A stretch of 64,000 nt of DNA from Felis catus. Its lineage: Eukaryota. The notes under the pieces were generated by a model. It was not told the origin of the DNA, did no database searches, and worked only from the letters and a program-made list of their open reading frames with translations. The position numbers and the translations under genes were made by a program. Positions 4,818-64,000 of the stretch are shown piece by piece. Position 1 is the first letter of the stretch. Each line of letters opens with the position of its first letter. The stretch lies in contig NC_058368.1 of assembly GCF_018350175.1 (NCBI RefSeq), positions 81,284,001-81,348,000 of the forward strand, written 5' to 3'.

Positions 4818-4959
4818 TGGATGCCTGTTATTTATTTATGTAGTGTAATTGCTGTGGCTAGGACTTCCAGCAACATGTTGAATAAAAGTGGTGAGAATGA
4901 ACATCCTTGTCTGGTTCCTGACCTTAGGGGAAAAGCTCTCAGTTTTGCACAGGAAGGCT

Positions 4960-5890
4960 ACTGTTAACAATAACAAACAGAAAATAGCAAATATTGGTGA
5001 GGATATGGAGAAATTGGATGCCTCGTACATGGCTGGTGGGGAATGTAAAATGGTGCCACTGCTATAAGAGATGGGATGGCTGCTCCTCAACAACTTGAAA
5101 ATAGTCTCACTATATGACCCCTGGTCCCAGTCCTGGGGTGGATATTCTCGAAAGAATTCAAAGTAGGAACCTGAGAAAATATCTGTACACCCTTGTTCAC
5201 AGCAACATTATTCACAATCGCCAAAAGGTGGAAACATTCCAACTGTCCGTCAACAGATGACTGGATCAACAAAATGTGGTGTCCATACAGTGGAATACTA
5301 TACGGCCTCTAAAAGCAAGGAGATTCTTGGGGCACCTGGGGCGCTCAGTTGGTTAAGCATCTGACTCTTGGTTTCAGCTCAGGTCATGATCTTACAGTCC
5401 GTGAGTTTGAACCCCACATTGGTCTCTACGCTGGCAGTGTGGAGCCTGCTTGGGATTCTCTCTCTCTCCTTCTCTCTGCCCCTCCCCTGCTTGCTCACTC
5501 TCTCTCAGTCTCTCTCAAAATAAATAAATAAACTTAAAAAAAAAAAAAGCAAGGAAATTCTGGCTGCAACGTGGATGAATCTTGGAGACGCTGGGGCTAA
5601 GTGGATAAGCCAGTCACAGAAGGACAGTGTCTGATTCCACTCATACGAAGTACGTTGAGTAGTCAGATTTATACAGATGGAAGTACATTGGCAGATGCCA
5701 ACCTCTGGGGGGCAGGTGAATGGAGAGTTAATGTCCAGGGACAGGGTTTCGGTTCTGCAAGATGAAGAAGGTTCTAGAGATAGATGGTGGTGATGGGAGT
5801 ATAATAATGTGAATGTACTTAATGCCACTAAACTGTATACTTAGAAGTGGTCAAAATGGAAAATTTTATCTTATGGATATTTTTCCCCGA
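4960..5890 (+). mobile_element. Old LINE-1 3' end (L1MB-like), interrupted by a SINE
   Basis: TGGTGAGGATATGGAGAAATTGG...GATGAAGAAGGTTCTAGAGATAGATGGTGGTGATGG...GTACTTAATGCCACT resembles L1MB 3' ends. Confidence 0.75.
5329..5544 (+). mobile_element. CanSINE
   Basis: GGGGCACCTGGG head, (CT)n, A tail; TSD aaaagcaaggagattct/aaaagcaaggaaattct. Confidence 0.93.
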
Positions 5891-6225
5891 TTTTTTAAAT
5901 ATTTAGAAGTCGACAAAAGTCCATATCAGATATCTAGTTGATGTTCAAAATTTCCCAGTTGTCTCATAAATGCCTTTTTTGCTGCTGTTGGTTTATTCAC
6001 ATCAAGACCCAAACAAGGTCTACGTGCTGCGTGAGGCCCATATGCTTCTTACATCTTTTCTGGCCGCTGTCTGCTCCCCTTCCCTTCCTTCCACTCTCGC
6101 TGCGTGTTTACTGAAGGAGCCAAGTCACTCGTCGTGTAACCGTTCCCACATTCGGCATTTTGCTGATTGCATCCATATAACTGTCTGTCCCTGGATTTTC
6201 TGCAAATTGATCATTTTTTCTAGAA

Positions 6226-6385
6226 CCGTGCCATCCAGTGGAAGCTTCTGCAGTGGTGGGAATGTTCTACTTTGGCACTGTCCCCGGCAGCAGCCACCAG
6301 CCACGATGTGGCTGCCGAGCACGTGAAGTGTGGCTTCTGCTGCTGAGCAATGAATATTTAACTTAGTTTAGTTTTAAGTAATTCA
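6226..6385 (+). mobile_element. MER3-like hAT-Charlie DNA transposon relic
   Basis: TTCTGCAGTGGTGGGAATGTTCTA...GCCACCAGCCAC.ATGTGGCTG..GAGCAC.TGAAGTGTGGCT resembles the MER3 consensus as recalled. Confidence 0.7.
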
Positions 6386-6388
6386 ATT

Positions 6389-6644
6389 GTTTTAATTTTA
6401 TTTTTTATTTTTTAAAATTTGCATCCAAACTAGTTAGCATATAGTGCAACAATGATTTCAGGAGTAGATTCCTTAGTGCCCCTCCCCCATTTAGTCCATC
6501 CCCCCCTCCCACAACCCCTCCAGCAACCCTCAGTTTGTTCTCCATATTTGAGTCTCTTATGCTTTGTCCCCCTCCCTGTTTTTATATTATTTTTGCTTCC
6601 CTTCCCTTATGTTCATCTGTTTTTTCTCTTAAAGTCCTCATATG
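6389..6644 (-). mobile_element. Young 5'-truncated feline-type L1 3' end
   Basis: T-rich tail then CATCCAAA.TAGTTAGCATATAGTGCAACAATGATTTCAGGAGTAGATTCC; perfect TSD agtaattcaatt at 6377-6388 and 6645-6656. Confidence 0.85.
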
Positions 6645-7243
6645 AGTAATTCAATTTTGAATACTTTCTTAGACCCAGGTCTAGAACAGCACAGTCCCAG
6701 AGGCTTGATCAAATCCACGCTTTTTTGCTGTTGTCCGAGAGGCACTTTGATGGGATGTTTGCTGGGGTGACAACCGACCCACCGCAGACTCCAGCCCGGC
6801 CCCAGGGCGCTGGGCTGCTGCCCCGTGGTAGGCCCTTCCCCTGCGGCCCTTACAGTCGTGCCCATGGGTGCTCCCGCTCACAGCCTCTCTGGGGGCCGTT
6901 GGGCCTCTCTCTATCTTCAGAGCTTCACCTGGCCACGCAGCCAAGTACCCGGTGGTGGCATGAAACCAGGCCCCTCCTCAAAACCCACCGCTTCCTGCCG
7001 GGTTGGGTCCGGTCCTTCCCGAGCGCTTATCTTCTGTGGCATATCCACAAAACCATTGCCTTTCTGTGTCGTCCTTAGGTCCCCTAAGGGACCTGAAATT
7101 CAGGAATATATGACTGTCTCAAGATACCCTCCTGGGCTCCTCAGTGCATCTACCCATCCACCTGCTTTGGGACGGAAATTCTGACACCTGTTAATACCCA
7201 CCTCACAGTTACCAGCCATCGGTTCTGTTAACAAAAAAGTCAA

Positions 7244-7640
7244 CTCCTCCTCTTCCTCCTTCCCCCTCCCCTCCTCCTCCCATTCCTCTTCCCCTCCTGC
7301 TCCTCCCTCCTCCCCTCTTGCTCCTCCCTCCTCCCCTCCTGCTCTTCCCTACTTCTCCTCCCATTCCTTCCCCTACTCCTCCTCCCTCCCTCCCCTCCTC
7401 CCCTCCTGATCCTCCCTACTTCTCCTCCCCCTCCTTTCCCTCCTCCTCTTCCTCCTCCCTCTTTTCCTCCTCCCACTCCTCCTCCCCCCACCTCTCCTCC
7501 TCCCCTCCTGCTCTTCCCTCCTCCCTTCTTGCTCCTCCCTCCTCCCCTCCTGCTCTTCCCTACTTCTCCTCCCCCTCGTTCCCCTTCTCCTCCTCCTCCC
7601 CCCTCCCCTCCTCCTCCTCCTCCTCCTTCTTCTCCTCCTT
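7244..7640. repeat. ~400 bp polypyrimidine/polypurine (CCT-rich) low-complexity tract
   Basis: Almost exclusively C/T on the + strand. Confidence 0.95.
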
Positions 7641-7657
7641 TGAACACACTTCTCCTT

Positions 7658-7872
7658 GGGGCACCTGGGTGGTTCAGTCAGTTAAGCATCTGACTTCGGC
7701 TCAGGTCACGATCTCCTGGTCTGTGAGTTCAAGCCCCATATCGGCCTCTGTGCTGACAGCTCGGAGCCTGGAGCCTGCTTTGGATTCTGCGTCTCCCTCT
7801 CTCTCTGCCCCTCCCCTGCTCGTGCTCTGTCTCTGTCTCAAAAATAAATAAAAAACATTTAAAAAAATTTTT
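7658..7872 (+). mobile_element. CanSINE (SINEC_Fc-like)
   Basis: Canonical head, (CT)n region, AATAAA/A tail. Confidence 0.93.
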
Positions 7873-7899
7873 AAACATAATCCTCCTTGAAGACAACGT

Positions 7900-9580
7900 G
7901 AATTCTTCCCAGATAACAAGACTACATCTTATCTTCTTCTTACTGGTGAACACAGGATTGCTTCCAGTCACTTGCCACTTTGCAGAGTGCTGGAGTCAGT
8001 CACCTCTTGCACGCACTTTACACACGTGCAGGTACGTCTTTAGGACAAACCCCAGGAGTAAGATCGCATCTGTGATGGTGACAGACGCAGCCCAGCCACA
8101 CCATAGCACGTGCTCCCACCTGTGCCTGCGTGCAGACTCCCAGTCCACAGAGCACATTGTCCACGTGTGGGATTTGTGCGGTGCTCTTATGTCACAAGTG
8201 GTGTCGCAGAAGGTTCAGCATCTTCTCATGCACTTAGGGGCCATTTGTGTCCCTTTCCTGTGGACCAACCTGTTCACTTCCTTTGCCCATTTGTTGTTGG
8301 TCGTCGGTCTTTTTCTTATTGATTTATAAGGCACTTTACATATTAGGGAAATTAGTCCTCCATGATATGAAGTTGCCTTTATTTTAACTGTAGTTGAATT
8401 AATGAGTCTTCATTAGTTTTCCCCACCCCAGGTTGTAAAGGAATTTGCCCGTGCTTGATTCTAGTATTCGCATAGTTTTTTTGTCTGTTTGTTTGTTTAC
8501 ATTTGATTTTTTGGTCCATTTGGAGTCTCTTCTAGTATTAGGTGAAATACGTGAACCGATGTTCACGTTTTCTGGTTGGCTCTGAACTTTCCTCTGTTCC
8601 ACTTGTCCTTCTGTATGTCCATCTGTCGGGCTCCGCACCATACCATCTACCCACTGAGGTTTCACGTTTGGGGTCTGGGGGCGCTGGGACCCCTTCCGTG
8701 GTTCTTCTTTTTAGGAATTCTTGGACATTCTTTATTTTTCCTTATCAACTTTGAAATTAGCTTGTTTTATTTTTTAAAAAGATGCTGGCAGTAATTTCAA
8801 TGGGTTCGTATTAAGTTTATGTGATAAGTTAAGGAGGGTTTGTATCTTCCCGGCATCAAGACTCCTGATTCAAGGGGGCCGTGTGTTTCCTTCTGCCTGA
8901 GCCTGCACGGACTTCTGCTGTGTGAAAGCTTCCCTCACGCACGATTCCCACATCCCTTCTGGACTTTACTCTAGTTTTGCCGTGACGGCTGCTGCCGCCA
9001 TTCTTTTTGCCGTGATCAGTGGGGGTCTTTCCTTCCATTTGCCTTCCAACTCGTTGTTTGTATCTGTGATGGATATAGATGTTCAAATATGAATACACGA
9101 CAATGTGGTCTTCAGGAATGTGGAAACCAAAAAAAAAAAAAAAAAGGCAAAAAAACATAACGAATGGGGGATTGTTCAGATTGAAAGGAAGCTCAGGGCA
9201 CGTGATAAGCTTATGCGACACGAGATTCTCGTTGGGACCTGGAGTTTTGAAAACATGCAAAGAACGCTTTGGGGACAAGTGGGGAAACTTGTGCTCGAGC
9301 TGTAAACTGGGCATCAGTGTAGAGTCGAGGGCACAGTGCCTGGGCCGGTTGGACGACATCCTCGTTCTGGGACACGCCCGGGGCTGGGCGAAGGATCGCC
9401 AGTCTGCAGTTTACTTCCAAATGGTTTGGCAACAAGTGAAATTCCCACACACAGACGCGCACATGTGGGCAGAGGGGCAAACTTGGAAAAATGTTAGCAG
9501 TTGGCGAATATAAAGTGTCCATTGTGTTATTCTCTCGGCTGTTCTGGGAGTTTGAAATGTTTCCAAATAAAAAGTCGGGG
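7900..9580. mobile_element. Degraded ancient L1 fragments (L1MC/L1ME-like)
   Basis: Fragments such as CATCTTCTCATGCACTTAGGGGCCATTTGTGT...CCTTTGCCCATTT (minus) and TTTGAAATGTTTCCAAATAAAAAG (plus 3' end). Confidence 0.55.
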
Positions 9581-12500
9581 CCAAAGAGAGCATCTGTGTA
9601 AACCCTTGGCACATCGTAGGTGTGCAGTGATGATGTGGCTGGTCACACCCCAGCGGGACCAGAACTCTGCGGAGAATATAGAGAGTTTTATGCGTCCGTG
9701 GGGCGTCTCACTCCCCACTCCCTGAAGGCCCCCGGGTCGGGGAGCGGGTGCAGGCCTGGCTGCTTTATTGCTCAGTTCTCACTGATCACAAGAGTCCTCT
9801 GGGCACCGCTCCCCTAATGCCCACAGAACTGGTTATTTCTGTACGAACATAACCTTCCGAGGTTCGGTGAATGGCACAGTCTCTTCCCGGCGCCCCCACC
9901 TGCGGCCTGCAGCTGTTGAAGCCCGCCCCGGGCCCTCCATCCTGCCCTGGCAGGGACGAAGACACCCCAGAGAGACAGCGATGAAGGACAGACGGACAGA
10001 CGGACACACGCACAAGTGAGGTGCACTTGCCTCGTGCTGTCTCTTCCGTGAGAAGACTTTTCACCATCATGAGCTGGAGGCAGAGGGGGAAGGGCGCCCA
10101 CAGGTGCCAAGGGGAGTGAGCGAAGGGGCGGCCGGTGCCGGCGGGGCAGGCAGTGACGGGTGTCCAGAAGCACTGCCACGCCCAACGACTGCGAGGGATC
10201 TGGGTCACAGAGGCAGCAGACACCAACGCGGGGACATCCAGCTGGATGCTGAGCAGAGAGGGCTGGCGGGTGTGAAGGCGACGCTACGTGGGTGAGTGTC
10301 AGGCATGGTGCGAGGGGCAGCCCCGGGGACCTCAGAGGAGCCGTGCCGGACAGAGCCACGACAGAGGGTGGCTTGCGTGTTGTGATGAGGTGTGGGAATT
10401 GCTCCGGTGAAAGCAAAGCAAACTCACAGGTCCCGTCGGCAGGGACAGGAGAGCTCACTACACACGGAGAGCTCAGGAACGAAACCCTGACTGACCCAGC
10501 CGAGTGCAAGGCCACACAAGGAGCGGCCACCCTGAGCACCTACAGAGACCCCGACGCTGGCGTCTCACCGGGACCGTGCAGCCTCCACCCCCAGGGACAC
10601 ACGGCACCTCTGCACCTGCCGTGTGTCAGGAGTCCCTGCCTCTGTCTGCTGTCGGCCGTGAGGGATTCCAAAAGGTTTGGAAGGATCGGTATGTTCTAGA
10701 AAAGGAGGAGGAGGCATCTCAGGAGAGGAAAATGATGCCAAGAAAAACAGGCCTTGAAAATTATTCTGAATGTAAGATTCATTATCCCCTGAAACCTGTA
10801 TGATAAAATTAATTAGTCGTGTGCCTGGATTTCCTTTGTCCGTCTCTAGGGTGTCACCCGCATGGTTTTCACTCACTGGGTAATGGCCGTGTAAGCACAG
10901 CTCCACTCGGCTGAGTGCGGCCCAGCGCCCTCCTCCACAGCCTGGCAGCCAGTGCCGCCCAGGCCTCTCCGAGCACGAGACTTTGGCAGGGTCTGGTGGG
11001 TGACAGAGACAAGGCCTGCGAGTCAGGCCCAGGGGGTAAAGGGAGAGCAACCAGCAGCATCGAGGAAGAAAGTTCAGGTCAGTGAGGTCGGAGTTTAGGA
11101 AGCACAAGAGGGGCCCAGAGGTGGGCACAGGCCTGGGTACCCGGGACCAGTGGGCACCAGCAGAAGCAGCCACATCGGAGTGGAACGGGCCGGGACATCC
11201 CAGACAAACTGGCCGGAAAGTCCCCGCTGCCCCACCAAGGGAACCACAGGCAGATGTGTAATGACCTCCCAAGGCTTTGATGACAGCATCTTCTCTGTCA
11301 CCGAGCCCGGGTGGCTGGAACCTCCATTCTCTCACATTAAGAAACCAAAGCTCTGTAGGCGTGTTTTGTCCAACAGACAAGATCCCACTTCTGTTTTGAG
11401 GACATCGAACAGTTCAGGAGAAAAACATGAGATATCAAATTGTTGACGCCGCTTCAGGTAAGTCCTGTCAGCATCCCCCCACCCCCCGGCTGCCCGGAAC
11501 GTGGGACAAGCCCTGGGAACACGGCCACCGATGCCCGCCCGGCTGATTTGCTGACTCCCACCCGAGAGGGCACGCACTTGGACCGGCCCAGTGGCAGGAC
11601 ACCAGCCTCGCCTGGGGGAGGGTGACAGGGCGACCGCCAGAAGCCCCCTGCTCTGTCACACGCAGAGCCACTGCCTCGTGACAAAGGGGACGGAGGTGAC
11701 GTCTACTGCAGCCTGAGCCGCGCCCTCACTGCTCAGCGCTGCTGAAATATTCCCCCGGAGTTTCTATGGGTCCAAACTTCGCCCGCCCACCCAGTAGAAA
11801 GTATTTTATGTTTTCACACAGGGTATATTTCTATGCTTGTCAGCAAAGGCCTCCTTCTCAGGAAGACAGCCTGACTGACATATTTTCACACCCATGGAGT
11901 TTCAAATGAAGTCAAAGTCCAAGCAAAATGCCACAGCTACAGAACCACACGAGCTAAATCGATGAGGGCCTCACGGTCCTGCGTGCGGGTGAAAAAGCTG
12001 CGCACTGGGCAAGCTTTGTGTTTCCCGGCTCCCGGGGGGTGGGGGGGAGGGCAGGTGTGGAGCGTCCCCCGCGGTCCTGTGGGCTGCTGGCTCTCTGGGA
12101 GGGACACCGTTGACGTGTCCTTGGGGCCGTGCTCCTCCCAGGCCAGCACACTGGATCAATACCTCACAAGCAGGAGGCTTCCGCCCCCAGGGAAGAGGGA
12201 CAGTGAACAGGTGACCCGCCTTCCGGAGGACTTTGCACCCGCTGCAGACGCATGCAGGCACGGGGGCCTGGGCCTTCTGGAGACCTGGGGGCCATTTTTC
12301 AATCTGCCGTCTCGTCACAGCCCCTGGTGTTGTTGCGGGTTCGCATTCAGTAAGGATCCCTTGGGTCCGGTGGCAGGAGACCTCGCGTCACACGCGGACC
12401 CTCGCCAGGCTCCACCGGGGACCAAGGTTTGGTAACTTTAGTTCTTATGCTGTTGCATCACCCAGAGACCTGGTGAGGGGGCTGCCAATTCTGATATTCA

Positions 12501-48696: not shown

Positions 48697-49875
48697 ATGT
48701 ACAGCATGATGATGGAGACCGACCTGCACTCGCCTGGCGGCGCCCAGGCCCCCACGAACCTGTCGGGCCCGGCCGGGGCGGGCGGCGGCGGGGGTGGCGG
48801 TGGCGGCGGCGGCGGCGGCGGCGGGGTCGCCAAGGCCAACCAGGACCGGGTCAAGCGGCCCATGAACGCCTTCATGGTGTGGTCCCGCGGGCAGCGGCGC
48901 AAGATGGCCCAAGAGAACCCCAAGATGCACAACTCGGAGATCAGCAAGCGCCTGGGCGCCGAGTGGAAGGTCATGTCCGAGGCCGAGAAGCGGCCGTTCA
49001 TCGACGAGGCCAAGCGGCTGCGCGCGCTGCACATGAAGGAGCACCCGGATTACAAGTACCGGCCGCGCCGCAAGACCAAGACGCTGCTCAAGAAGGACAA
49101 GTACTCGCTGGCCGGCGGGCTGCTGGCGGCCGGCGCGGGCGGCGGCGGCGCGGCGGTGGCCATGGGCGTGGGCGTGGGCGTGGGCGCGGCGGCCGTGGGC
49201 CAGCGCCTGGAGAGCCCGGGCGGCGCGGCGGGCGGCGGCTACGCGCACGTCAACGGCTGGGCCAACGGCGCCTACCCCGGCTCGGTGGCGGCGGCGGCGG
49301 CGGCCGCGGCCATGATGCAGGAGGCACAGCTGGCCTACGGGCAGCACCCGGGCGCGGGCGGCGCGCACCCGCACGCCCACCCGGCGCACCCGCACCCGCA
49401 CCACCCGCACGCGCACCCGCACAACCCGCAGCCCATGCACCGCTACGACATGGGCGCGCTGCAGTACAGCCCCATCTCTAACTCGCAGGGCTACATGAGC
49501 GCCTCGCCCTCGGGCTACGGCGGCCTCCCCTACGGCGCCGCGGCCGCCGCCGCCGCCGCCGCGGGCGGCGCGCACCAGAACTCGGCCGTGGCGGCGGCGG
49601 CAGCGGCGGCGGCCGCGTCGTCGGGCGCCCTGGGCGCGCTGGGCTCGCTCGTCAAGTCCGAGCCGAGCGGCAGCCCGCCCGCCCCCGCGCACTCGCGGGC
49701 GCCGTGCCCCGGGGACCTGCGCGAGATGATCAGCATGTACTTGCCCGCCGGCGAGGGCGGAGACCCGGCGGCGGCCGCGGCGGCCGCGGCGCAGAGCAGG
49801 CTGCACTCGCTGCCGCAGCACTACCAGGGCGCGGGCGCGGGCGTCAACGGCACGGTGCCCCTGACGCACATTTAG
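48697..49875 (+). CDS. SOX1: SRY-box transcription factor 1 (SoxB1 HMG-box protein), single exon, 392 aa
   Basis: ATG at 48697 ([13 protein letters not shown]...), TAG at 49873-49875. HMG box [42 protein letters not shown]...YKYRPRRK (~48844-49074), SoxB motif [11 protein letters not shown], Gly15 tract, poly-Ala tracts, His-Pro repeat, VKSE SUMO-type motif, C-terminal TVPLTHI. The ORF-track start at 48334 is a GTG in the leader. Confidence 0.99.
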
Positions 49876-52879: not shown

Positions 52880-55280
52880 CAGCTTCGTCCCGTCTTTGCT
52901 GCAGAACCTGGCGCAGAACGCGGACAGGACTCGCTGGGGAGCCGGGTGCAAAGTTTGCAGAACTTGGCGCAGAAGGCGGTTCTAGCCGCGGGTGGCACGG
53001 TTTGCCGCGGGGGGGGGGGGGAGTTGTCTGGTTTCCCACCACCTGTATTTAAAACGAACAGGCCCTTTTTGTGGCTGCCCTTGGGACTTGACTCCAGCCC
53101 CCCCGCGCCCGGCCCGGGAATCCCACAGTAGCGAGATGCCATGCACTGGCCGGAGAACCAGCGCCGGCAGGCGCGCCCGTTCTGCAGATGTGGGTCGGGA
53201 GCTTGGCTGACGGGTCTATTAAAGGCGCGCGTGGGAGAAGGCTCGCACGCACGTTCACGCAGTTCTTTTTCCCGACAAAGACTCGGCCACGCAGAGCTCT
53301 GTCTCCGGAAAATTCCGCTTAATTCGAGAAAGCATCCGGGGCCCCGGGAGGCGCGATCCAGGGCGGCCGGGCTCCGGCACCCGCCGCCCGCCCGCGGCCC
53401 CCCTCCCCGCGGCCCCTCCCGGCTCCCCCCTCCCGGCTTCCGCAGCCTGGCCCGCGGGGCAGAGGCTCCAGAAACGTCGGCGGCAGAATGTAATAATAGG
53501 TTTGATTCCTTGGAAACTTCAAGTGAAAAGCAGACTTGGCCTTGGCGCAGCCCCTTTTCCAGCACGACTCTTCGGCGGGATTGAAATGCTGGGCCAGAGA
53601 GGAGGGGAGAGGGGCGCAGGCCCCCGGGGCGAGCAGCCGAGGGGGGTGGGTCCGGTCCCCGCCCCCGGGGCCTGCAGGGTCGCCCCCCAGCCCGACAGCG
53701 GGGCCCGGCGGAGAGGGAGGGGGGCTCGGAGCCCGCGTCCCCGCCCCTCCTCCGCCCCCCGCCCGGCCCTTCCCCTCCAGCTGCGCGCCGCCCGCCCCCG
53801 GGAACCCAGCGGCGTGGGCGGCGGGGCGCTGGGGGCGCGGCCCGGGTCCCCTCCCGGCGGGGGGCGGGGGCGGCCGGCCTCCGGCCCCGCTCGCCGCCCT
53901 TCCCAGGCCCTGCTCCGGCGGAGCCCCGGCCGGGACGGCTCCCTGGCCTTCGCGCCCCGCTTGCGTCCTCCCCTCTCCGCGGTGCGCACCCCTTCCCGGC
54001 CCGCCAGCCGCCCGCCTCCCTCCGCCTTTACCTCCGTCCCCTCCCGCCTCCGACTCAGTCCCTTCCTTTCTCCGCGCGCCCGGCCTCCCTTTGTCCTCGC
54101 CGCGTCCGTCTCCGCCCCGCGCCCCGGCTGCTGCTGCCGCCGAGTCGGGTCGGGGTCGGCCGGTACCCGGACGTGGCCCGTCGCCCCCCGCTTGCTCGGC
54201 CGCGTCCCCACCGGCTCGCGCGGGAGGGGCGGGGACCCCGGCAGCGACCCGGAGCCCCGCGTCCGGGCCGCCCCGACCCTCCCGGTGCAGCCTGGGCTCC
54301 GGGGCTGGCGGTGTCAGCCGCGGGGGATTAAGGTGACTGATGCGAGGGAAGAGGCAGAGTGTTTTTGTGTTTAAAGAGAGCGGGATTAGTAGAGAGAAAG
54401 TCCTGACCCGGGGTCAGCTGCAAGTCAAACCCTTTTACAATCAGCGGGCGGAACAAGCGCGTCTCCGGGCCGGGCCGCAACACGTGGGGGGAAGGCGGCG
54501 GGGCGGAGGGCGGCGGGGGGGGGGGAGAGGGGGACCCGTACCCCCAGACTGCGGCATCCCCGGACTGTGGGGTGGAGAGCGGGGGGGGGGAGGGACATGG
54601 GGGTCCGCACCCCCGGACTGCGGGATGGAGGGCAGGGGGAGGTGAGGGTCCACAACCCCGGACTGTGGGGTAGAGGGCAGGGGGAGAGGGGGGCCCGCAC
54701 CCCCGGATTGCGGGGTGGAGGGCGGGAGGAGGTGAGGGTCCGCACCCCCCGGACTGTGGGGGGGAGAGGGGGGGCCCGCACCCCTGGATTGCGGGGTTGG
54801 AGGGCAGGGGGAGGTGAGGGTCCGCACCCCCGGAATGCCAGGTGAAGGGCTGGGGGAGAGGGGATCCGCACCCCCGGACTGCGGGGTGGAGGGCGGGGGG
54901 AGAGGGGGCCGAGATTAGGGACTGGCACTCCTGGCCAGAGCGCGCACTGGACCGGGCGAACGGAGGGGGCGCGGGGGGGGGGGGTCGCGAATCACCGCGG
55001 TGCGGGTTCGGAGCTTTGCAGGGTGGGATTAGCTGCCCATCAGAATTCCTTCCAAGCCGGAATGCCTGCGTCTGCCGTTTCCTGGGCCGTCTCCCGCTGC
55101 TCCTCGGATGGGAGCCTGGGGAGAAGGCCTGATGGGCTCCCTGCTTTAGGGGCTCTGTCTTACTAAAGCAGCTCTTTTTCCGTAAGAAACCCAAACCGAA
55201 AGCCCAGGCCCTGGGGCGAGGGGCGCTTCCCGGCCTCCCGTCCAGAACCGTGGCCTCACTTAGGCCCTTGCAAACCCAGA
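52880..55280. promoter_or_regulatory. Downstream CpG island
   Basis: Dense CpG/GC; includes a G-rich minisatellite. Confidence 0.85.
54530..54910 (+). repeat. G-rich ~45-bp minisatellite, ~8 copies
   Basis: Unit GGGTCCGCACCCCCGGACTGCGGGGTGGAGGGCAGGGGGAGGTGA with variation. Confidence 0.88.
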
Positions 55281-56859
55281 TCGGAGGCGGAGGCGTGTAG
55301 CAGTGAGGGCGGGGGGAATATGTTAGGACCCCCATTGTCCATCAGGGTGGAGGAGTGAGGCCCTCATTTGGGTTATAAACCAGGCGTTTTTCATCAGGGA
55401 GTGAAATCCCCTGGCGGCGGGTGGGGGTGGGGCGCTGACCTCAAAAGTAATGAAAACTGGAGTTTGGGGGGAAGGATGAGAGGGGTCAGGAGAAAAGAAC
55501 AGAACAGAGATAAATTTGTCTTCCTTAGCAGTCAGGTTCAGAATTTATGCTTAAGTAACACCAAGTTTTGACAAATATGAAAAACAAGGGAAAACACGAC
55601 AAGCAAACTATCCATCCCATATAGAAAAAGGTCATCTATCTTGGTAAACAAACAAACAAACAAAAAATCCAGGATTGGCACACTTTTCTCTAAGTTGGCT
55701 TTTCGTCTTTAAATGTGAAAACATCGACACCAAATTGAGAGAGAGAAAGCAGGCTTACAAACACCACAAAAGGAGGGACTGGGAGTGAACCCAGGCCCTT
55801 CCTGGGGCAACACCGGGTGCCCTGGCGGCACATGGGCTCCGGGTTCAAAACCAAGTAGCCAAAACTCGCCAAGTAGCTCAGGAACTTGCTAAATGTAACC
55901 GATGGGGAAAATTGGTCTGTGACAAAAACTCTGGACTCTGAGAGTAATTCTGGATGCCCGGCAGGCAGCTCCAAGGCTTTAATTGCCGGCAGCCACTTCA
56001 GAGCAGCCACGCGGGCACATTAAAGACGTTTGTCAAGAACAGGTCACATGCAAAGTCTCGAAATAGTCAGCCAGTCAAATCAGTGGAAAAAATCAGCTTT
56101 TGTTAGATTTTGCAGCTTCAGGAATTAGGCATTCACTGCAGAGCTGCGGTTTTGAGAAATTGCAATGTCAGGCATGTTCCCAATGGGGAAATATTGTGAA
56201 CGTGGAGGAATGTAAGATTGGGTCTGACAATGGGGAAACTGACAAGAGGTATCACCCAGACATTGTTTTCTCTCTGAGCACCCCGAAATGCTAACTAGAG
56301 ACGATATCTAGAGGCAGCAATAGCACTCGCAGTTCGTCCTACGCACTTGAGACCTACGGAAACAAGAGTCTCACCGGCCTGGAGTACTGACCCAGGACTT
56401 CCTACGATGAATCCCAGAATGTAGGGCAAAGTACCCGATAGGTAGACACAACCACAAACACGACACCAGCAGGAAGAAATTCAAAGCAGAGGCCAACTTG
56501 TCTTTTTATTTCTAAGCAACAGAATAGGAGGAGAGCCAGGCGAGCGTCCTTTAACCCGGAAAAGAATTTAGAACCCTCTTGCTTTTAAGTCATCCAAACT
56601 ATCGGGGGAATTTTCAGGACATGGAAAAGCCCAAACTTCAGCAGTAAATTTACCGTGAATTTCCGCGTAGAGATCGACGCAGAAGCTTCGCTCTTTGTGT
56701 TCAAAACCGAACTGAAGAGTGAAGTTGATTCCTGTAAAAATTGGCTATTTGCGTTTTCACCCTACAGGGAAATGACAGATGTGTGCTCAAAGAAAAGGAA
56801 GAATTTAGGTGAAAAGTTAGTCAATATGGTATTTGTCGTATTTCTAATGTCTGTTGAAC

Positions 56860-57095
56860 CGTAGCACAGCAACATGGGAAAGAATACAGGATTTGGAGGA
56901 AGACAGGATTGCAGTTGAATCCAGGCTTGGCATGTGTCAGCTCATTGCCCTTGATCAAGTGTCCTTCTTCTGAGTCCATTTTCTCATATGCAAAAAAGAA
57001 AGACTAGAACCCACTTCATAAGAATATGGTCAGGATTAATGATGTAAGGAGCATGCTGCGTCTAGCAAAGAGTAGACCGTCAGTAAGTGGTCACT
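56860..57095 (+). mobile_element. MIR SINE relic
   Basis: GTTGAATCCAGGCT...CTTGATCAAGT...TCTGAGTCCATTTTCTCATATGCAAAA...AGGATTAATGA. Confidence 0.7.
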
Positions 57096-58957
57096 TGACA
57101 TAGAAGCCTGTGTCGGCCCGGGCAGGGGTACAGTGGGACATCAATGCCAAATTTGGCCTGAGTGGGAGCAGTGTTAATTGTATGCGCCAATACAGTGCGC
57201 CGATATATTCATATTAATAACAACCCGTCTTTAGAGTTACGTGACAACCATCCTATTCATTCATTCATCTGTTCAACAAATACCAGTTATGGGCACATTG
57301 TACATCCAGGTTATCACAGGAGCACGTGTGTGTGTGTGTGTGTGTGTGGCCAGGTGCTGGGGCTCACTACCCAGTGGGTGGGACTCATTGTCACATGAAC
57401 GAGTACGTTATTGAGGGCGACAGTTGGGGGGCAGAGGTATCTGCTTCATGCTGCCTGATCATTCGTGCCCCATTTGGGGGAATCAGGGAAGGCTTCTCAG
57501 AGGAAGTGAAAGATGGAAGCCGGACATCCTGGTGCTGCTCCAACATTCCCTGTCGCCAGTCTTGACACGAGGCGTAGGCACTGCATTTCTGTACACACCA
57601 GTGAAGAGTGCCACATAAATTTGAGCAGAGGATACACGAGAACCGCTTTGTTTTTCAGTGAACTGCTAATGCAGATTGGCTCTGAGCTGTCAAAGATGTA
57701 GACTCAGAGGTTCACTCTGGCAGCGGGCTCCCGTCTTCAGGGTGCACAGGACACGGGAGAGCTTGCTTCACATCCAGAATCAAAGACCCCGTGCCCCTGA
57801 CAGGCCAAGCCTGGGGTTCCAGTGACACCCGGGATCTGCACCATCATAGGCACACCCAGACGAGGTGAGACGGGTCCTGCGTGATACTGGGAAACCGGTG
57901 TCAGGGGAGAGGCCCCCAAATTTGTATGATAAATAGAGCTGCTAAAGCTGTGTCTAGATCATTTAAATTCAAGTAGCGATTTATTACTTATAAAGTGCTC
58001 TTACCTAATTGTTCAATTACATGACTTTTGAAAAAAATTGAATTAGCGAGAGAAGAAAAAAATTTAAGCTGGATTATTAGAATGTCATAAAGAGGAAGGA
58101 CTGACTGATTTACTGCCTTTATTTTCTGTTTTCCAACAAATCGTTCTGGCTGCCTGTAAAGAACTTTGCCGCTCCTGAACCACAGTTAACGTGAAAACAC
58201 CACGAGCATATACCACGCACTCGCCTTTTGCTTTTCAGGGGCCAAAGCATTCGTGTCGGTTAGCTGAGAGTAATTTTAGTGGCACGTGACATGGAAGGAG
58301 GGACATTTAATAGTGCCCATGAGATGGGATAAATCAGCTTAACTGGATAGGTCATGATTATAACAAAGTGCGGTATCATTAGTTTCTCCATACTGTCATC
58401 TGTGAAATGGGAATATTTTGTTGTTAAAAAACCTTGATCCATTCACTACTTTAAACATCTTTGTGCAAATCGAGGGGCTGCCGTATGAACAAGTAAGCTG
58501 TATACACGGGCTGTGCTACATCTACAAAGCACGCAGTTCTGCTTTATGGACGTCCCTATTACCGCCGATCACAGTAAAGACCGCATTCCTGCTGTTGACA
58601 GACACAGATGTGGATTAAGGTGTGGTTGTGGGAGAAATCGTGACCTATGTGAATGGCATGTGAGAAAATAAATTTTAAATACAAGATAATGAGAGAAAAT
58701 GTTCCATAAAAAAGAATCAAAACTGTGTTGGTAATCTAAGAATTCCAGTATGGGTTTTAGGTAATTTCAGGACACAAGGTGTCGTTCAGGAAGTCTAATA
58801 ATCTATGCATTTTAACTATAGCTTTTTGGAGACAGTGACTTTGCCTTTGTTGACTAAATCATTCATAATTTTAACAGATGAGAATGTCAGGCCAGACACT
58901 CAGGCCCCTGTAGATAGTGGGGAGGGCGGAGTTTCTTAAACTGACTCGTTCTGAATA

Positions 58958-59770
58958 TTATCACATGTGATTAATACCACTGTTGCCCCTAGTGCCACCA
59001 TCACGTGCATGTCCCTTTTCTGTTCCCCACAACACCCAGAACGGGGGATGCTCTGTCACCACGTGGCGAATCCAGAGGAAAGAAAATCCTGCACTCGGAA
59101 AGGAGGCATGTGCAGGAGCGGAGTTGTTTATATTGGAGCCAATGAAATGAAGAGAGAAGAATAAAAATTGAGCAAAGTAAAAATCTAGGGTGGCTCTGAC
59201 CACAGGATTGCTCCTGGCCAACACCATCAGACTCAGCCTCTGTGGGGACAGTTGGGAGAGGTCCTGGGGCTGCCAGCATTTACAACCAAAAGGGTCACAA
59301 AGCTACTGACCGTATTTTAGTAGGTCCTTAGCATATGGGCTTACGTGTCAGTATGTCACCTGTAATTCTCTCCGAGATGCACGGATTTAAATTTGGTTAT
59401 GATAATCTGAGTAAGATACTAATGTAAAAAACTTTCCTGATCATTAAAAAAAAATTGTTTTAGTCTTTCAAAGTTAGAATACTACTGGAAATGTATTCTC
59501 AATTTTAAAATATGAACTATGAAATTTGGAAAACAAACTAAAGTATGCACTTGCTAAGGGGAATTATATAAAAGCCTTGAGATAATTAAACCATATTTTA
59601 TTCCCCAAAACAAATATATCACCTGTAGGCACTACTTGCAGAACGCTAAAATTGTATTTAAAATCACAGCTCAAATTTGATTATGCATGTGCATTAAAAA
59701 TAGATCATTTAAAATCAAGCTACAAGCTACAAGTTCAATATAAATATGAACAAATTAAGTTTTAACTGAA
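58958..59770 (+). repeat. Large inverted repeat, left arm
   Basis: Reverse complement aligns to 61725-62243 plus 62701-63004. Confidence 0.93.
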
Positions 59771-61724
59771 TTTGAAACAGTTATGATTATAAGAAATCAG
59801 GTTTGGAAAAAAAAAACATAACATTTACAATAACATTTTAAGGTGAAGTCGTCACATTAGGGATTTATTTAAACTTAACGTCCAGAAAGGGGCCAGACCA
59901 GCATGCTTCTGCCTGAAACCCTGCCAGAGAGGAGAGCCCCCAACAGCCTCGTGCAGGTGAAGTCTTCGCCGGCCAGAACAGCTTTGGAGAGAGCAGGTAT
60001 ACCCCTGGCAGTGACCACATGGAAGGCCTCACTCCCAACATCACCAAGGCTCCTGGAGACCAGAAACTGATTGGCTTGATTCCCCACCATCAGCAGAGTT
60101 CCGAGCACCTCGTACGGGGAAAGCAGCCATTCACCGAAGTGAATCCATGCAGAAGGGCACACGTAGGGGTATAGGCTGCTGACAAGGAACCAGAGAGAGC
60201 AAGGCTGGCCTCAGCCGGGGCCCCCTGCATCCCCAGGGGAGGGCCCAGTGTCACGTGTGATGGTGTGAAGGAGAGAAGGCCCCTCGGGGACTCAGCATAG
60301 TGCCTGCCACATCTCAGGACACGGGGAGCAGTAGTGTCTTTGTGGCCGCTGTTTTTGTGGTTCTTCGGGAGATACAGAACGCAAAATCGAGGCTGGAGAG
60401 CAGGACACGCCCTCCCGTGGCCTGGTGCTGAGGCAGCAGAGGCTCCGGAAGAGTAAAGCTCTCTCACCTCCATGTCCCATAAAACGGGACTGAGGGGCAG
60501 TGGAGGCCACGGGGCTTGTATTTCAATTCTGAATTCCCCAAGACCTGCTCTGTGATTCGGCAGGTAGTGGGGTGCAGGGAATGTTTGTTAGTCAAGTGAG
60601 GTGTTATGACTGTTGTATTGCGTTGTGCAGCGTTGTGTCTTGCGGTTTCATGCTGTGCTGTTTCGTGTTCTGTTGAGGTCAAGGGGTTCTCTCAGGACCA
60701 TCAGGGCAAAGTCACACCCGGCGTGCAGAGATGGTCCAGGCACCTGGCGAAAAGGAAGCATGGCAGGGACGAGGCGGTCACCTCCGGGGCTGCAAGGCAG
60801 AACTGGGAGCCTCCTGGTAGGAGTCACACAGTGGGGACATTACCTCTTCCTGCTTTAATCATACAACTAGCAAGGAACCTAGGAAAGAGCTTATGGGGAC
60901 CCGCCTCACGGCAGTGACCCTGACGTGGAAATAGGTTGGCAGCTGGCCGGTCCCAGCCAGCACTGTCTCCAGATGCTCACCTTCTCGCTCTTCTTCGTAA
61001 CAATCCTTGTCGCAGTGTGAATCTGACCTGTAACCTGCTTGTGTGTCTGAAATGTACAAACCTGGGAAGGTACTTCCTATAATTAGAGTGGTGGGTGTCG
61101 GACCGTGCAGAGGGAGGCACAGGGCACCCGTACTTGGGGACAGGATGGGCCCAGTGCCCTGTCCCAACTCTGTCCCTACTGTGCTTTCCCACACTGTGAG
61201 CAGAGGCACCCTGGGGGCCCCCGCAGAATCAGAGAGACTGCTCAGGATGTTTACACTCCAAGGGAACACAAGAATCCTGGCCACTCGATCAGATGCCATG
61301 TGCACCCTGCTTCAAGGTAGTCCACCATCTGAACGTTCCTTTCTGGCCAGATCCCTCTGCTGGCATCTGATCTTCGTGAAACTGGGTTTTCAGCAGCTGC
61401 TGTGTCAAAAGTAATTTGCATGGGAAACTCGGAGTGGACCCAGAAAGGAGGTATCAGGGTCCAACCTGATCCCACGTTGGCAGAGGCGTGCAATATGCAG
61501 ACTGTACACACGGCCGCTGATCAATAATTGTGGCTGATGGGGAGCAAAGTGAAAGTGAATACTTTTTCACTCAATTTATGTAATTAAAAAATTGTCACTG
61601 AGTTATTAGCACATACGTGTTTATTAAGTTGTTTAGACTTACCTACTTAACAATCAGAACCGTTAGATACGTCTTTTGGCCTGGGGCACTCTAAATAATT
61701 ACTGGAATGCTAAGAGGGCGCTAA

Positions 61725-63004
61725 AAATGCATACAATTCAAATTGATATGGAATTGGTAGCTCATAGATTGACGTAAAATTATTTTTGCTTTTATTATAT
61801 CAATACAAAGGCATCATTTAATTTAAGCTGCAACTTTAAATATAATCTTATTTTTCTGCCAATACTTACTACAGATGATGTATTCATTTTGGATAATCAG
61901 TGGTCTATTTTAAGAATTTTTTATAAATTCCATTAGTAAGTGATAATATCCCTTGTTATCCAAATTTCCCTTTTTTAAAAAACTGAGAATACATTTCCAG
62001 TAGGGTCCTCGGTTTGAGAACAGAGGTAAATGATTTATTTATGCTTAAATGAGAATAAAGTCTTTACGTTAGTATTTTACTCAGATTATCATAACCAAAT
62101 TTAAATCCATGCATCTCGGAGAGAATTACAGGTGATAAAACACAGACACATCAGTCTGTGTGCTGAGGACCTGCTAAAATATGGTCAGTAGCTTTGTGTC
62201 CCTTTTGGTATAAATGCTTCCAGCCCCAGGATCTCTCCCAACTTTCTTTTCTTTCTTAAATTAAAAAAAAAAAAACATTTTTTTTTACATTGATTTATTT
62301 TTGACAAACAGAGTGAGACAAAGCATGAGCAGGGGAGGAACAGAGAGAAAAGGAGACACAGAATCCGAAGCAGGCTCCAGGCTCCGAGCCGTCAGCACAG
62401 AGCCCGACAAGGGGCTCGAACCCACAAACTGTGAGATCATGACCTGAGCCGAAGTCAGTCGGTTGAGCCACCCAGGTGCCCCGTTTCTTAATTTTTTTTA
62501 AATGTTTATTTATTTTTGTGAGAGAGAGACAGACCATGAGTGAGGGAGGGGCAGAGAGAGAGGGAGACACAGACTCCAAACAGGCTCCAGGCTCTGAGTT
62601 GTCAGCACAGAGCCCTACACGGGGCTCGAACTCATGGACCTCGAGGTCGCCACCTGAGCCACAATCTGATGCCCAACCGACTGAGCCCCCCAGGCGCCCC
62701 TCTCCCAACTGTCCCCACAGAGGCTGAGTCTGATGGCGTTGGCCAGGGCAGGCCTGCATTCAGAGCCACCCTAGATTTTTGCTTTGCTCGATTTTTATTC
62801 TTCTCTGTTCATTTCATTGGCTCCAATATAAACAATTCCATTCCCGCACATGCCTCCTTTCCGAGTGCAGGATTTTCTTTCCTCGAGATGTGCCACATGG
62901 TGACAGAGCGTCATCCCCCATTCTGGGTGTTGTGGGGAACAGACAAGGGACATGGACGTGATGGTAGCACTAGGGGCAGCAGTGGTATTAATCCCGTGTG
63001 ATAA
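61725..63004 (-). repeat. Large inverted repeat, right arm (interrupted by SINEs at 62244-62700)
   Basis: Reverse complement of 58958-59770. The ORF track shows the same peptide on opposite strands (58961..59227 - and 62540..63001 +). Confidence 0.93.
62244..62700 (-). mobile_element. Two tandem CanSINEs, one nested in the other's A-tail
   Basis: Two SINE bodies ending at 62482 and 62700; outer TSD ctctcccaact (62233-62243 / 62700-62710); inner TSD tttcttaa. Confidence 0.93.
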
Positions 63005-63731
63005 AGGGCCAAGCGGCTGGTAGTTCAGGGTGTGAACGGGAACTTCAAACAGCACAGGGTCGGCGGGGCCCTCAGCGTCACTCTGAAACCAAAACATGTG
63101 ATTCACCACTCTCGTTCTTGCAAGTAATTATATTTGTCGTGTATTCAAATCAAATATACGCAAATAGGAGCAAATGCCTCCCTTGGAAGAGGCAGCTGTC
63201 CGTCATGTACGTTAACTGACTTTCTTCAAAAGCTCTTTGGTATTTTAAGTTATCTTACTTCCTGTTTTGGTTTTGTTTGTGTCCCTGGAGAGGCAGTGGG
63301 GGGGGGGGGTTCGCAGGGGCGGGAGGGCGGTGGGACTTAGATCAGCAGTTTGTAGGACCCACGTCCAAGCAAAACGTGAAAGGCTTTGGGCTCAGCGTCT
63401 GTTTCAGCCGGTTCAGGGATGTGAGTGGTTTCTATACTCACTACAAAAGTACTCAGGTTCGCCCGTGGGAGCCAGGGCTCTGGTATGAACATGGAATTGT
63501 GTTTGAAGTACAGATGACTGAAATCCTTTGGCCCGATGGATTCACTACAGTGACTGGAACATGGGAACAAGGAGAGAACATAATTCAGGCCAAAAAGTAC
63601 ACAGAATGTTAAGAAAATGATCAGGAATGAGGGGTTACCCAGAGCTCAAGTGGATGCAAAGCAGAGGGAGTCAGAAGGGTCACCCTGGAGCCACGGAAAC
63701 ATGAGAAAGTCAGGGAGGCGTCCCTGTGACT

Positions 63732-64000
63732 CGGAGGCCACGCCTGTACCACAGAGGTCTCACTGCACCACTGAAGCCACCCTGGCAACTCGGAGGCCAC
63801 CCCTGAACCACAGAAGCCACCCCTGAACCATGGAGGCCACCCCTGCACCATGGAGGTCACCCCTGAACCACAGAGGCTGCCCCTGAACCACGGAGGCCTC
63901 ACTGCACCACAGAGGCCACCCCCACACCCCGGAGGCCACACCTGCACCATGGAGGCCACCCTTACACTGCAGAGGCCACCCTCACACCCCAAAGGCCACC
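63732..64000 (+). repeat. 20-bp minisatellite running off the window end
   Basis: Unit GAGGCCACCCCTGAACCAYR, ~13 copies visible. Confidence 0.9.

What the first reader, a model, noticed from the sequence alone, without database searches (positions are those of the whole stretch)
58958..63004. Large non-transposon inverted repeat ~9 kb downstream of SOX1
Seen: 58958-59770 is the reverse complement of 61725-63004 once the SINEs at 62244-62700 are removed. This gives ~800-bp arms around a ~2-kb spacer. Hand counts: 58961-59260 vs 62701-63004 ~90% identical; 59356-59428 vs 62063-62135 70/73 identical. I do not recognise the arms as any SINE, LINE or LTR. Knowledge: SOX1 lies within an overlapping lncRNA locus (SOX1-OT) in human and mouse. 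Inference: any transcript crossing this region could fold into a several-hundred-bp dsRNA stem (ADAR substrate, endo-siRNA source, circRNA or splicing loop). Alternatively the arms could be a mirror-image duplicated enhancer pair.
Basis: partly seen in the sequence, partly recalled or inferred. Interest (0 to 1): 0.85.

Follow-up and report, generated by a model that had tools for sequence, protein, structure and literature searches.

The report
Old inverted duplication downstream of SOX1
About 9 kb past the SOX1 gene of a cat-family genome, an 800-base stretch was copied long ago in reverse orientation 2 kb away; it is real and not a jumping gene, but nothing yet shows that it does anything.

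Summary
The inverted repeat is real. The left arm 58958-59750 aligns to the reverse complement of 61737-63004 once a 456-bp pair of carnivore SINEs (62244-62699) is removed. The alignment has 652 matches, 122 mismatches and 56 gap columns. In the 2.43-Gb assembly each arm matches only itself and its partner. SINE and LINE controls gave 3,614-9,080 candidates in the same search. It is therefore a single-locus inverted duplication, not a transposon pair. The diverged arms, with SINEs in only one of them, also argue against an assembly artefact.

The arms have two tiers. The outer 465 bp differ at 9.5% of sites and the inner 328 bp at 25%; the change point is at 59423 and 0 of 1000 permutations reach it. 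The SINEs inserted after the duplication and have themselves diverged 6-11%. That makes the outer arms 2-3 times too alike for neutral drift. I favour arm-to-arm gene conversion; constraint on a duplicated regulatory element is the main rival.

An RNA from either strand would fold into the predicted long stem. This is an ordinary kind of structure with modest interest.

The parts
58958..59422 (+). Left arm, outer high-identity tier (465 bp, GC about 46%). It begins with a perfect 12-bp palindrome ATCACATGTGAT at 58960-58971.
   Evidence: 44 mismatches in 463 aligned columns (9.5%) and 4 small indels. The outer boundary of homology is sharp at 58958/63004.
59423..59750 (+). Left arm, inner low-identity tier (AT-rich, GC about 26%).
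   Evidence: 78 mismatches in 311 columns (25%) and 12 indels. Transversions outnumber transitions (43 tv to 30 ts for 59441-59750). The match is still significant: E=7.7e-78 for arm positions 290-793.
59751..61736 (.). Spacer of 1,986 bp, unique in the genome. Its GC-rich core at 59850-61500 has GC 55.7% and CpG o/e 0.40, so it is not a CpG island. It holds one old dispersed-repeat fragment at 61548-61704.
   Evidence: the spacer matches itself plus three short matches of 86-155 nt at 71-78%. One search gives the composition; none of the four ORFs of 90 aa or more has a Pfam family; no Rfam match.
61737..62243 (-). Right arm, inner part plus the proximal part of the high-identity tier (partner of 59250-59750).
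   Evidence: in the whole genome it matches only itself and the left arm (73%, E=4.8e-78).
62244..62699 (-). Two tandem carnivore-type tRNA-derived SINEs inserted into the right arm after the duplication. SINE A is about 62260-62483 and SINE B about 62484-62699.
   Evidence: D2 and D3 are 80% alike; an 11-bp target-site duplication CTCTCCCAACT lies at 62233-62243 and 62700-62710, and the 8-bp direct repeat TTTCTTAA at 62252-62259 and 62484-62491 suggests that A is nested in B's tail; 5,144 and 3,614 genome candidates. A differs from the consensus of its 29 best copies at 14/204 sites (6.9%) and B at 23/209 (11%).
62700..63004 (-). Right arm, outermost high-identity block (partner of 58958-59261).
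   Evidence: 26 mismatches in 303 columns (8.6%; 6.1% outside CpG); in the whole genome it matches only itself and the left arm (90%, E=8.7e-114).

Best explanation
This is a genuine, single-locus, old inverted duplication (a small palindrome with a spacer). Roughly 800 bp lying 9 kb 3' of SOX1 was copied in reverse orientation about 2 kb away. The most likely cause is a replication template switch or fold-back repair event (inferred). It happened before two SINEs landed in the right arm. The inner third of the arms has since drifted at about the neutral rate. The outer 465 bp has stayed 2-3 times more alike, most likely because arm-to-arm gene conversion kept homogenising it on both sides of the SINE insertion until fairly recently (inferred). 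On this reading the structure has no selected function of its own. If it lies inside a SOX1-OT-like primary transcript, it would passively form a long imperfect dsRNA stem, as inverted SINE pairs do.
For: Shown:
- The arms are collinear, inverted and highly significant.
- There are only two copies in 2.43 Gb, with 2 of 2 first-look candidates scored. The same search gives 3,614-9,080 candidates for the SINEs and a LINE-like control.
- In a self-comparison of 74 kb it is the only low-copy inverted pair.
- The arms differ at 122 of 774 aligned sites and only one arm carries SINEs, so this is not an assembler fold-back.
- 14 DNA-like runs from six studies (P1-P6), under two organism labels, hold 94-97% of the stretch's sampled 31-mers. 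None was laid.
- Divergence has two tiers, with a maximum-likelihood change point at 59423/62068 (2dLL=33.4; 0 of 1000 permutations reach it).
- Internal clock: the SINEs are absent from the left arm, which keeps a single target site, so they post-date the duplication. Their non-CpG divergence from a consensus is 5.9% (A) and 9.1% (B), or 11% each against a cruder 11-copy consensus.
- Neutral arms should therefore differ by at least about 12-18%. The inner tier does (23.2% non-CpG). The outer tier does not (8.1%; binomial p=1.8e-9 against 18%, p=0.007 against 11.8%).
- The outermost block has near-Poisson mismatch spacing (dispersion 1.1-1.5), and the longest exact run of 39 nt is not exceptional (permutation mean 41-42). 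This is what uniform drift since a homogenising event would give.
- No ORF with a Pfam family and no Rfam match.

Background: arm-to-arm gene conversion is the accepted explanation for high arm identity in mammalian palindromes (start of abstracts of PMC8981503 and PMC3723533 in the listing).
Against: - Gene conversion and purifying selection predict the same thing in a single genome, and no outgroup could be obtained (searches found nothing).
- Conversion after the SINE insertions would have to act in short tracts (304 bp and about 160 bp) on either side of a 456-bp heterology, with homology ending at the outer edge. That is possible but not efficient.
- Across the whole outer tier the mismatches are over-dispersed (index 1.88 in 25-bp bins, p=0.005). 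A 73-nt block is 96% identical right next to a bin with 8 mismatches in 25. A mosaic of constrained sites would look like this.
- The locus is next to a developmental regulator gene, where conserved non-coding elements are common (recalled knowledge).
- The SINE clock is rough. The consensus built from best-matching copies is biased towards the query, and SINEs may mutate faster than unique DNA.
Confidence: 0.5

Rival explanations
1. Duplicated cis-regulatory module. The outer ~465 bp of each arm is a conserved non-coding element, such as a SOX1 or SOX1-OT enhancer. It was duplicated in mirror image, and purifying selection holds both copies at about one third of the neutral rate.
For: The outer tier is 2-3 times less diverged than the SINE clock allows. 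It has few indels, 4 against 12 in the inner tier. Mismatches are over-dispersed and a 73-nt block is 96% identical. Its position 9 kb 3' of a developmental transcription-factor gene fits. The cited paper reports evolutionarily conserved regions across the human SOX1-OT locus (passages of PMC5641280), but none is placed at this site.
Against: There are no cross-species data of any kind. The longest exact run (39 nt) is what random mismatch placement gives. CpG transitions make up a large share of the outer differences, as in unconstrained DNA: 13 of 49 mismatches fall in CpG-containing columns. Neither arm has a paralogous copy elsewhere in the genome.
Confidence: 0.25
2. Selected RNA hairpin. 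The repeat lies in a SOX1-OT-like transcript, and its long stem is the functional unit. It could be an ADAR substrate, an endo-siRNA source, or an intron-pairing device that promotes back-splicing or exon skipping of the spacer. Complementarity would then be what selection preserves.
For: The stem dominates the predicted fold of a 4.16-kb RNA from either strand: 663 or 628 arm-to-arm pairs, covering 434 or 430 of the 465 outer positions. Helices reach 47-59 bp. In human and mouse, SOX1-OT spans about 139 kb around SOX1 and extends 3' of it (passages of PMC5641280). One run guessed to be RNA (X16) holds 63% of the stretch's sampled words.
Against: No transcription evidence could be obtained. 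Transitions that would keep G.U pairing are not skewed to either strand (18 vs 11, p=0.26), and 15 of 44 outer mismatches are transversions that break pairs. A 456-bp SINE bulge interrupts the stem. There is no Rfam family. The RNA rows that hold the stretch are mostly gut or mammal metatranscriptomes, where host DNA carry-over is likely.
Confidence: 0.1
3. Two copies of an interspersed repeat, for example inverted LTRs or a DNA transposon with long terminal inverted repeats carrying the spacer.
For: The arms contain CCAAT-, TATA- and AATAAA-like words (read), which superficially recall an LTR. Very old families with more than 30% divergence from each other could escape the genome search.
Against: Three queries covering both arms find only two copies in the genome. 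The same tool finds thousands of candidates for SINE and LINE controls and picks up 71-78% matches of about 100 nt for the spacer's old repeat fragment. No target-site duplication flanks the unit: the flanks read TCTGAATA and AGGGCCAA. There are no TG...CA termini. No spacer ORF has a transposase or retroviral domain. Even if the source DNA were ancient transposon debris, two arms 84-90% alike with no third copy still require a local duplication.
Confidence: 0.04
4. Assembly artefact (a fold-back chimera).
For: None found.
Against: The arms differ at 122 aligned sites plus indels, and only one carries SINEs. Fourteen DNA-like runs from six studies hold 94-97% of the sampled 31-mers of the whole stretch, though none was laid.
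Confidence: 0.01

Closest known systems
Mammalian palindromes, i.e. inverted segmental duplications with a spacer (sex-chromosome palindromes P1-P8 and X palindromes; starts of abstracts of PMC3723533, PMC8981503 and PMC8327919 in the listing)
   Same: Two locus-specific arms in inverted orientation around a unique spacer. Arm identity is higher than the age of the structure predicts, which in those cases is due to arm-to-arm gene conversion and, for X palindromes, to selection as well.
   Different: This one is 10-1000 times smaller (0.8-kb arms against 8 kb to 1.45 Mb, sizes recalled). It is autosomal and non-genic. It is far more diverged (84% overall, 90% at best, against more than 99%), so any conversion has long since slowed or stopped.
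Inverted SINE pairs (IR-Alus) as dsRNA, ADAR and MDA5 substrates (start of abstract of PMC11263572 and titles in the listing)
   Same: A few hundred bp of about 85-90% complementary sequence separated by a few kb. If both arms sit in one transcript it would form the same kind of long imperfect duplex.
   Different: The arms are not transposable elements and occur once in the genome. Transcription and editing are not shown here.
Cis-duplicated conserved non-coding elements near developmental genes (recalled from the literature on duplicated CNEs; no paper read here)
   Same: A two-copy non-coding sequence next to a developmental transcription-factor gene, with less divergence than neutral.
   Different: Cross-species conservation, which defines a CNE, could not be tested. 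The mirror-image arrangement within 4 kb is not the usual layout.

Membership tests
Interspersed repeat / transposon (SINE, LINE, LTR, DNA transposon with TIRs) | Many dispersed copies in the genome | tested here: not met
   Arm queries give 2 first-look candidates, the arm itself and its partner. Controls give 5,144, 3,614 and 9,080 candidates.
Interspersed repeat / transposon (SINE, LINE, LTR, DNA transposon with TIRs) | Target-site duplication flanking the element; canonical termini (TG...CA for LTRs) | tested here: not met
   The flanks are TCTGAATA | arm ... arm | AGGGCCAA. The arm ends read TTATCACA... (read).
Interspersed repeat / transposon (SINE, LINE, LTR, DNA transposon with TIRs) | Internal coding capacity (transposase, gag/pol) or remnants of it | tested here: not met
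   0 Pfam families at E<=0.1 in all 7 ORFs of 90 aa or more in arms and spacer.
Palindromic / inverted segmental duplication | Two collinear arms in inverted orientation around a spacer, specific to one locus | tested here: met
Palindromic / inverted segmental duplication | Arm identity kept above neutral expectation by arm-to-arm gene conversion | tested here: inconclusive
   The outer 465 bp differ at 8.1% of non-CpG sites, against at least 12-18% expected from the SINE clock. Selection would give the same result. No outgroup or population data.
Palindromic / inverted segmental duplication | Large (arms of 8 kb or more) and near-identical (more than 99%), as in the classic sex-chromosome class (thresholds recalled) | tested here: not met
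   The arms are about 0.8 kb and 84% identical overall.
IR-SINE-like dsRNA / ADAR substrate | Complementary arms able to form a duplex of several hundred bp | tested here: met
   282-284 pairs in the outermost block, helices up to 59 bp. The stem is present in the MFE of the whole 4.16-kb RNA on both strands.
IR-SINE-like dsRNA / ADAR substrate | Both arms present in one transcript; clustered A-to-G mismatches in RNA reads | not testable with these tools
The cap then closed the tool.
Conserved non-coding element / enhancer pair | Conservation across species beyond the neutral level | not testable with these tools
   No mammalian outgroup is reachable. The protein-collection proxy found nothing, and three collection scans with arm motifs found nothing.
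Conserved non-coding element / enhancer pair | Open chromatin, enhancer marks or reporter activity | not testable with these tools

The most novel reading that the evidence does not exclude
The outer 465 bp of both arms is preserved by selection, not by gene conversion. It would be an ancient mirror-image pair, older than the SINE insertions and perhaps shared beyond the cat family. It would act either as twin enhancers 3' of SOX1 or as a conserved long hairpin that loops out the 2-kb spacer within the SOX1-OT primary transcript.
Probability: 0.25. Interest if true: 0.55.

Novelty: new member of a known kind. Interest (0 to 1): 0.3.

Why it matters
As it stands, this is a well-documented example of a small, old, non-transposon palindrome in a mammalian autosome, with a built-in clock. 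Two SINEs landed in one arm after the duplication. They show that part of the arms has stayed 2-3 times more alike than neutral drift allows. That makes the locus a compact test case for separating concerted evolution from constraint in short inverted duplications. If the arms prove to be conserved across mammals, it would point to a duplicated regulatory or RNA-structural element beside SOX1, whose regulatory landscape is less mapped than that of SOX2 (abstract of PMC5641280). If not, it is a neutral structural relic.

Tried and rejected
Nothing was learned.
- Run X16 is labelled 'RNA? may be DNA' and holds 0.63 of the sampled words. Gut, mammal and feline metatranscriptome runs hold 0.05-0.63 of them. 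None was laid, so these are leads only and not evidence of expression.
- Cross-species proxy through the protein collection. The left-arm ORF 59001-59279(-) found no candidate.
- Exact-motif scans with three short blocks shared by both arms gave 0 hits: metagenome contigs twice and genome contigs once. This was expected for collections that are mostly microbial.
- Earlier findings of this scan, searched by sequence, place and words: nothing relevant.
- Literature. 'SOX1' with 'inverted repeat' gave 100 papers, and none of the 15 listed concerns this locus. No description of this repeat turned up in that search or in the passages of PMC5641280 returned by the term search.
- Rfam at E<=1 over 56000-64000: 0 matches.
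- Pfam on 7 ORFs: 0 families. The ORFs at 59001-59279(-) and 62669-63001(+) share a frame only until a 1-nt indel, so coding is rejected.
- CpG island or promoter in the spacer: rejected, CpG o/e is 0.40.
- Strand-specific selection for G.U-preserving changes: not seen.
- A larger duplication around the repeat: none. The direct repeat 2772-4946 versus 7.6-9.7 kb beyond the window end is a high-copy LINE-like element.
Full report
**1. Observation**

The repeat finder on 57000-64000 returns seven collinear inverted pairs that tile 58958-59506 against 63004-61979. An eighth, A/T-rich pair of 74% looks like chance.

I removed 62244-62700 and ran a gapped local alignment of 58800-60100 against the reverse complement of the right side. 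It runs from 58958/63004 to 59750/61737 with 652 matches, 122 mismatches and 56 gap columns. The outer boundary is sharp. The inner one fades out in AT-rich DNA. In a search of the whole assembly the two partner pieces score E=2.9e-114 and E=7.7e-78, so chance is excluded.

The SOX1 ORF (392 aa, with the HMG-box sequence) is at 48697-49875 on the plus strand. The left arm therefore begins 9,083 bp after the stop codon.

**2. The interruption**

The block 62244-62699 is two tandem SINEs on the minus strand, 80% alike (D2 and D3; alignment). The tRNA-like head GGGGCGCCTGGGTGGCTCAG is typical of carnivore SINEs; that family name is recalled, not tested.

An 11-bp target-site duplication, CTCTCCCAACT, lies at 62233-62243 and 62700-62710, and the left arm has this word once. 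An 8-bp direct repeat, TTTCTTAA, at 62252-62259 and 62484-62491 suggests that SINE A landed in the tail of SINE B. The SINEs therefore post-date the duplication. The only alternative is a precise excision from the left arm, which is rare.

**3. Not a transposon, not an artefact**

The window lies at C1:81284001-81348000 of a 2.43-Gb, 71-contig assembly.

- The left arm, the outer right arm and the inner right arm (E up to 10) each produced exactly two first-look candidates: the query itself and its partner.
- The same tool gave 5,144 and 3,614 candidates for the two SINEs and 9,080 for a LINE-like stretch at 3615-4219.
- It also picked up 71-78% matches of 86-155 nt for an old repeat fragment in the spacer at 61548-61704. 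A family of even moderately diverged copies would therefore have been seen.
- The tool warns that its counts are lower bounds, so very old families with pairwise identity below about 70% cannot be excluded. Two arms 84-90% alike with no third copy still require a local duplication.
- No target-site duplication flanks the unit and the ends are not TG...CA.
- None of the 7 ORFs of 90 aa or more in arms and spacer has a Pfam family at E<=0.1.
- Rfam finds nothing in 56000-64000 at E<=1.
- A self-comparison of the window plus the next 10 kb (74 kb) shows this as the only low-copy inverted pair.

An assembler fold-back would give identical arms. These differ at 122 sites, and only one holds SINEs. 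Fourteen DNA-like runs under two organism labels, from six studies (P1-P6), hold 94-97% of the sampled 31-mers of 58900-63060. None was laid, and the best holder may be the assembly's own sample.

**4. Anatomy: two tiers**

Divergence is not uniform. A maximum-likelihood change point falls at 59423 on the left and 62068 on the right. Before it there are 44 mismatches in 463 columns (9.5%). After it there are 78 in 311 (25.1%). The likelihood-ratio statistic is 33.4, and 0 of 1000 permutations reach it.

| Segment (left-arm coordinates) | All sites | Outside CpG columns | K2P outside CpG | Transitions : transversions |
|---|---|---|---|---|
| Outer, 58958-59440 | 49/479 (10.2%) | 36/446 (8.1%) | 0.086 | 31 : 18 |
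| Inner, 59441-59750 | 73/295 (24.7%) | 67/289 (23.2%) | 0.278 | 30 : 43 |
| Sub-block 58958-59261 | 8.6% | 6.1% | 0.064 | 18 : 8 |
| Sub-block 59262-59440 | 13.1% | 11.4% | 0.124 | 13 : 10 |

The two sub-blocks lie on either side of the SINE site. The outer tier has 4 small indels and the inner tier 12. Left-arm GC is 46% in the outer tier and 26% in the inner.

**5. An internal clock**

I built a consensus from the 29 best-matching genome copies of each SINE. This choice biases divergence downwards.

- SINE A differs from its consensus at 14/204 sites (6.9%; 5.9% outside CpG).
- SINE B differs at 23/209 (11%; 9.1% outside CpG).
- Against a cruder consensus of 11 in-window copies the figures are 12% and 13% (11% each outside CpG).

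Both arms have existed at least as long as SINE B. Neutral arms should therefore differ by at least twice its divergence, about 18%, or at the very least twice SINE A's, about 12%. The inner tier (23%) fits. The outer tier (8.1%) does not: binomial p=1.8e-9 against 18% and p=0.007 against 11.8%.

So the outer 465 bp has either been homogenised between the arms after the SINEs arrived, or it evolves two- to three-fold slower than neutral DNA in both arms.

With recalled mammalian neutral rates of about 1-2.2e-9 per site per year, the inner tier (about 0.14 per lineage) points to a duplication several tens of millions of years old, perhaps older than the cat family. The outer tier (about 0.04 per lineage) points to a few tens of millions of years. 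These dates are inference only.

**6. Conversion or constraint?**

One genome cannot decide between them.

For drift since a homogenising event:
- In the outermost 304 bp the mismatches are spaced almost as a Poisson process (dispersion 1.1-1.5).
- The longest exact run (39 nt) is no longer than random placement gives (permutation mean 41-42).
- Thirteen of the 49 outer mismatches fall in CpG-containing columns, as expected for unconstrained methylated DNA.

For constraint:
- Over the whole outer tier the mismatches are over-dispersed (1.88 in 25-bp bins, p=0.005).
- A bin with 8 mismatches sits next to the 96%-identical 73-nt block.
- Indels are scarce.
- The locus adjoins a developmental regulator gene.

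Gene conversion after the SINE insertions would have to act in short tracts on each side of a 456-bp heterology. The differing divergence of the two sub-blocks (6% and 11%) is compatible with that. I put conversion without selected function at about 0.5 and constraint on a duplicated element at about 0.25.

**7. The RNA reading**

As RNA, the outermost blocks pair over 282-284 positions, with helices up to 47-50 bp. The next block pairs over 155-161 positions, with helices up to 46-59 bp. In the minimum-free-energy fold of a 4.16-kb RNA (58900-63060), the arms pair with each other on either strand: 663 and 628 pairs, covering 434 and 430 of the 465 outer positions. This is the geometry of inverted SINE pairs that ADAR edits (listing; mechanism recalled).

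In human and mouse, SOX1-OT is described as spanning about 139 kb around SOX1 and extending 3' of it (passages of PMC5641280). A primary transcript across this site is therefore plausible, but that is an inference from other species.

Nothing here shows transcription. The cap then closed the tool.

Among the 29 transitions of the outer tier, 18 would keep a G.U pair in a plus-strand RNA and 11 in a minus-strand RNA (p=0.26). Fifteen of the 44 outer mismatches are transversions that break pairs. There is no sign that pairing on one strand is what is being preserved. As a selected function I give this reading about 0.1. Passive dsRNA formation, if the site is transcribed, is likely under any reading.

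**8. The spacer**

The interval 59751-61736 is unique in the genome apart from the old repeat fragment. Its GC-rich core (59850-61500, GC 55.7%) has CpG o/e 0.40 and is not a CpG island. Its ORFs have no Pfam family. I found nothing that marks it as a gene or a mobile-element body.

**9. Comparison with known things, and verdict**

The structure belongs to the known kind 'inverted segmental duplication (palindrome) with spacer'. [quoted passage not shown] It is not a transposon pair, because the defining features were tested and not met. It would work like an inverted SINE pair at the RNA level if transcribed, but membership of that class fails on the point that the arms are not SINEs.

I found no description of it. 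The search 'SOX1' with 'inverted repeat' listed nothing relevant among the 15 of 100 papers shown, and earlier findings of this scan held nothing.

- The 'non-transposon' claim is supported.
- The functional inferences are untested.
- The one new result is the two-tier divergence, calibrated by the nested SINEs.

Interest is modest (0.3). It would rise if the arms prove to be conserved by side across mammals.

Noticed in passing
window 63732-64000 (runs to the window end): GC-rich minisatellite with a 20-nt unit (consensus CGGAGGCCACCCCTGCACCA, 12.6 copies, 72% matches) and a 99-nt higher-order period, about 700 bp beyond the right arm.
   Followed up: partly
window 54328-55335 (minus-strand ORF) and 54555-54902: A GC-rich stretch about 4.5-5.5 kb 3' of SOX1 holds an internal direct repeat offset by about 98 bp (79% identity). 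It gives a 335-aa open frame full of repeated PPALHPAVRGCGP-like units. This is probably a tandem repeat in a GC-rich stretch rather than a gene.
   Followed up: no
window 2772-4946; L068 about 7608-9651 (7.6-9.7 kb beyond the window end): Direct repeat pair at 74-80% identity on either side of the SOX1 region. The stretch 3615-4219 is a high-copy LINE-like element (9,080 genome candidates). It also has a 91% inverted copy about 11 kb before the window start, at C1:81272401-81273006.
   Followed up: partly
window 61548-61704: Fragment of an old dispersed repeat inside the spacer, next to the inner end of the right arm. It has three genome matches of 86-155 nt at 71-78% identity. The family was not identified.
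   Followed up: no
window 58960-58971: A perfect 12-bp palindrome, ATCACATGTGAT, lies exactly at the outer end of the left arm. Its counterpart in the right arm (62991-63002) is degenerate. It might be a relic of the duplication junction (read).
   Followed up: no
window 62263-62287: Between the target-site duplication and SINE A, a run of 13 A is followed by a run of 9 T on the same strand (pair I8). This is an odd tail structure for a minus-strand SINE.
   Followed up: no
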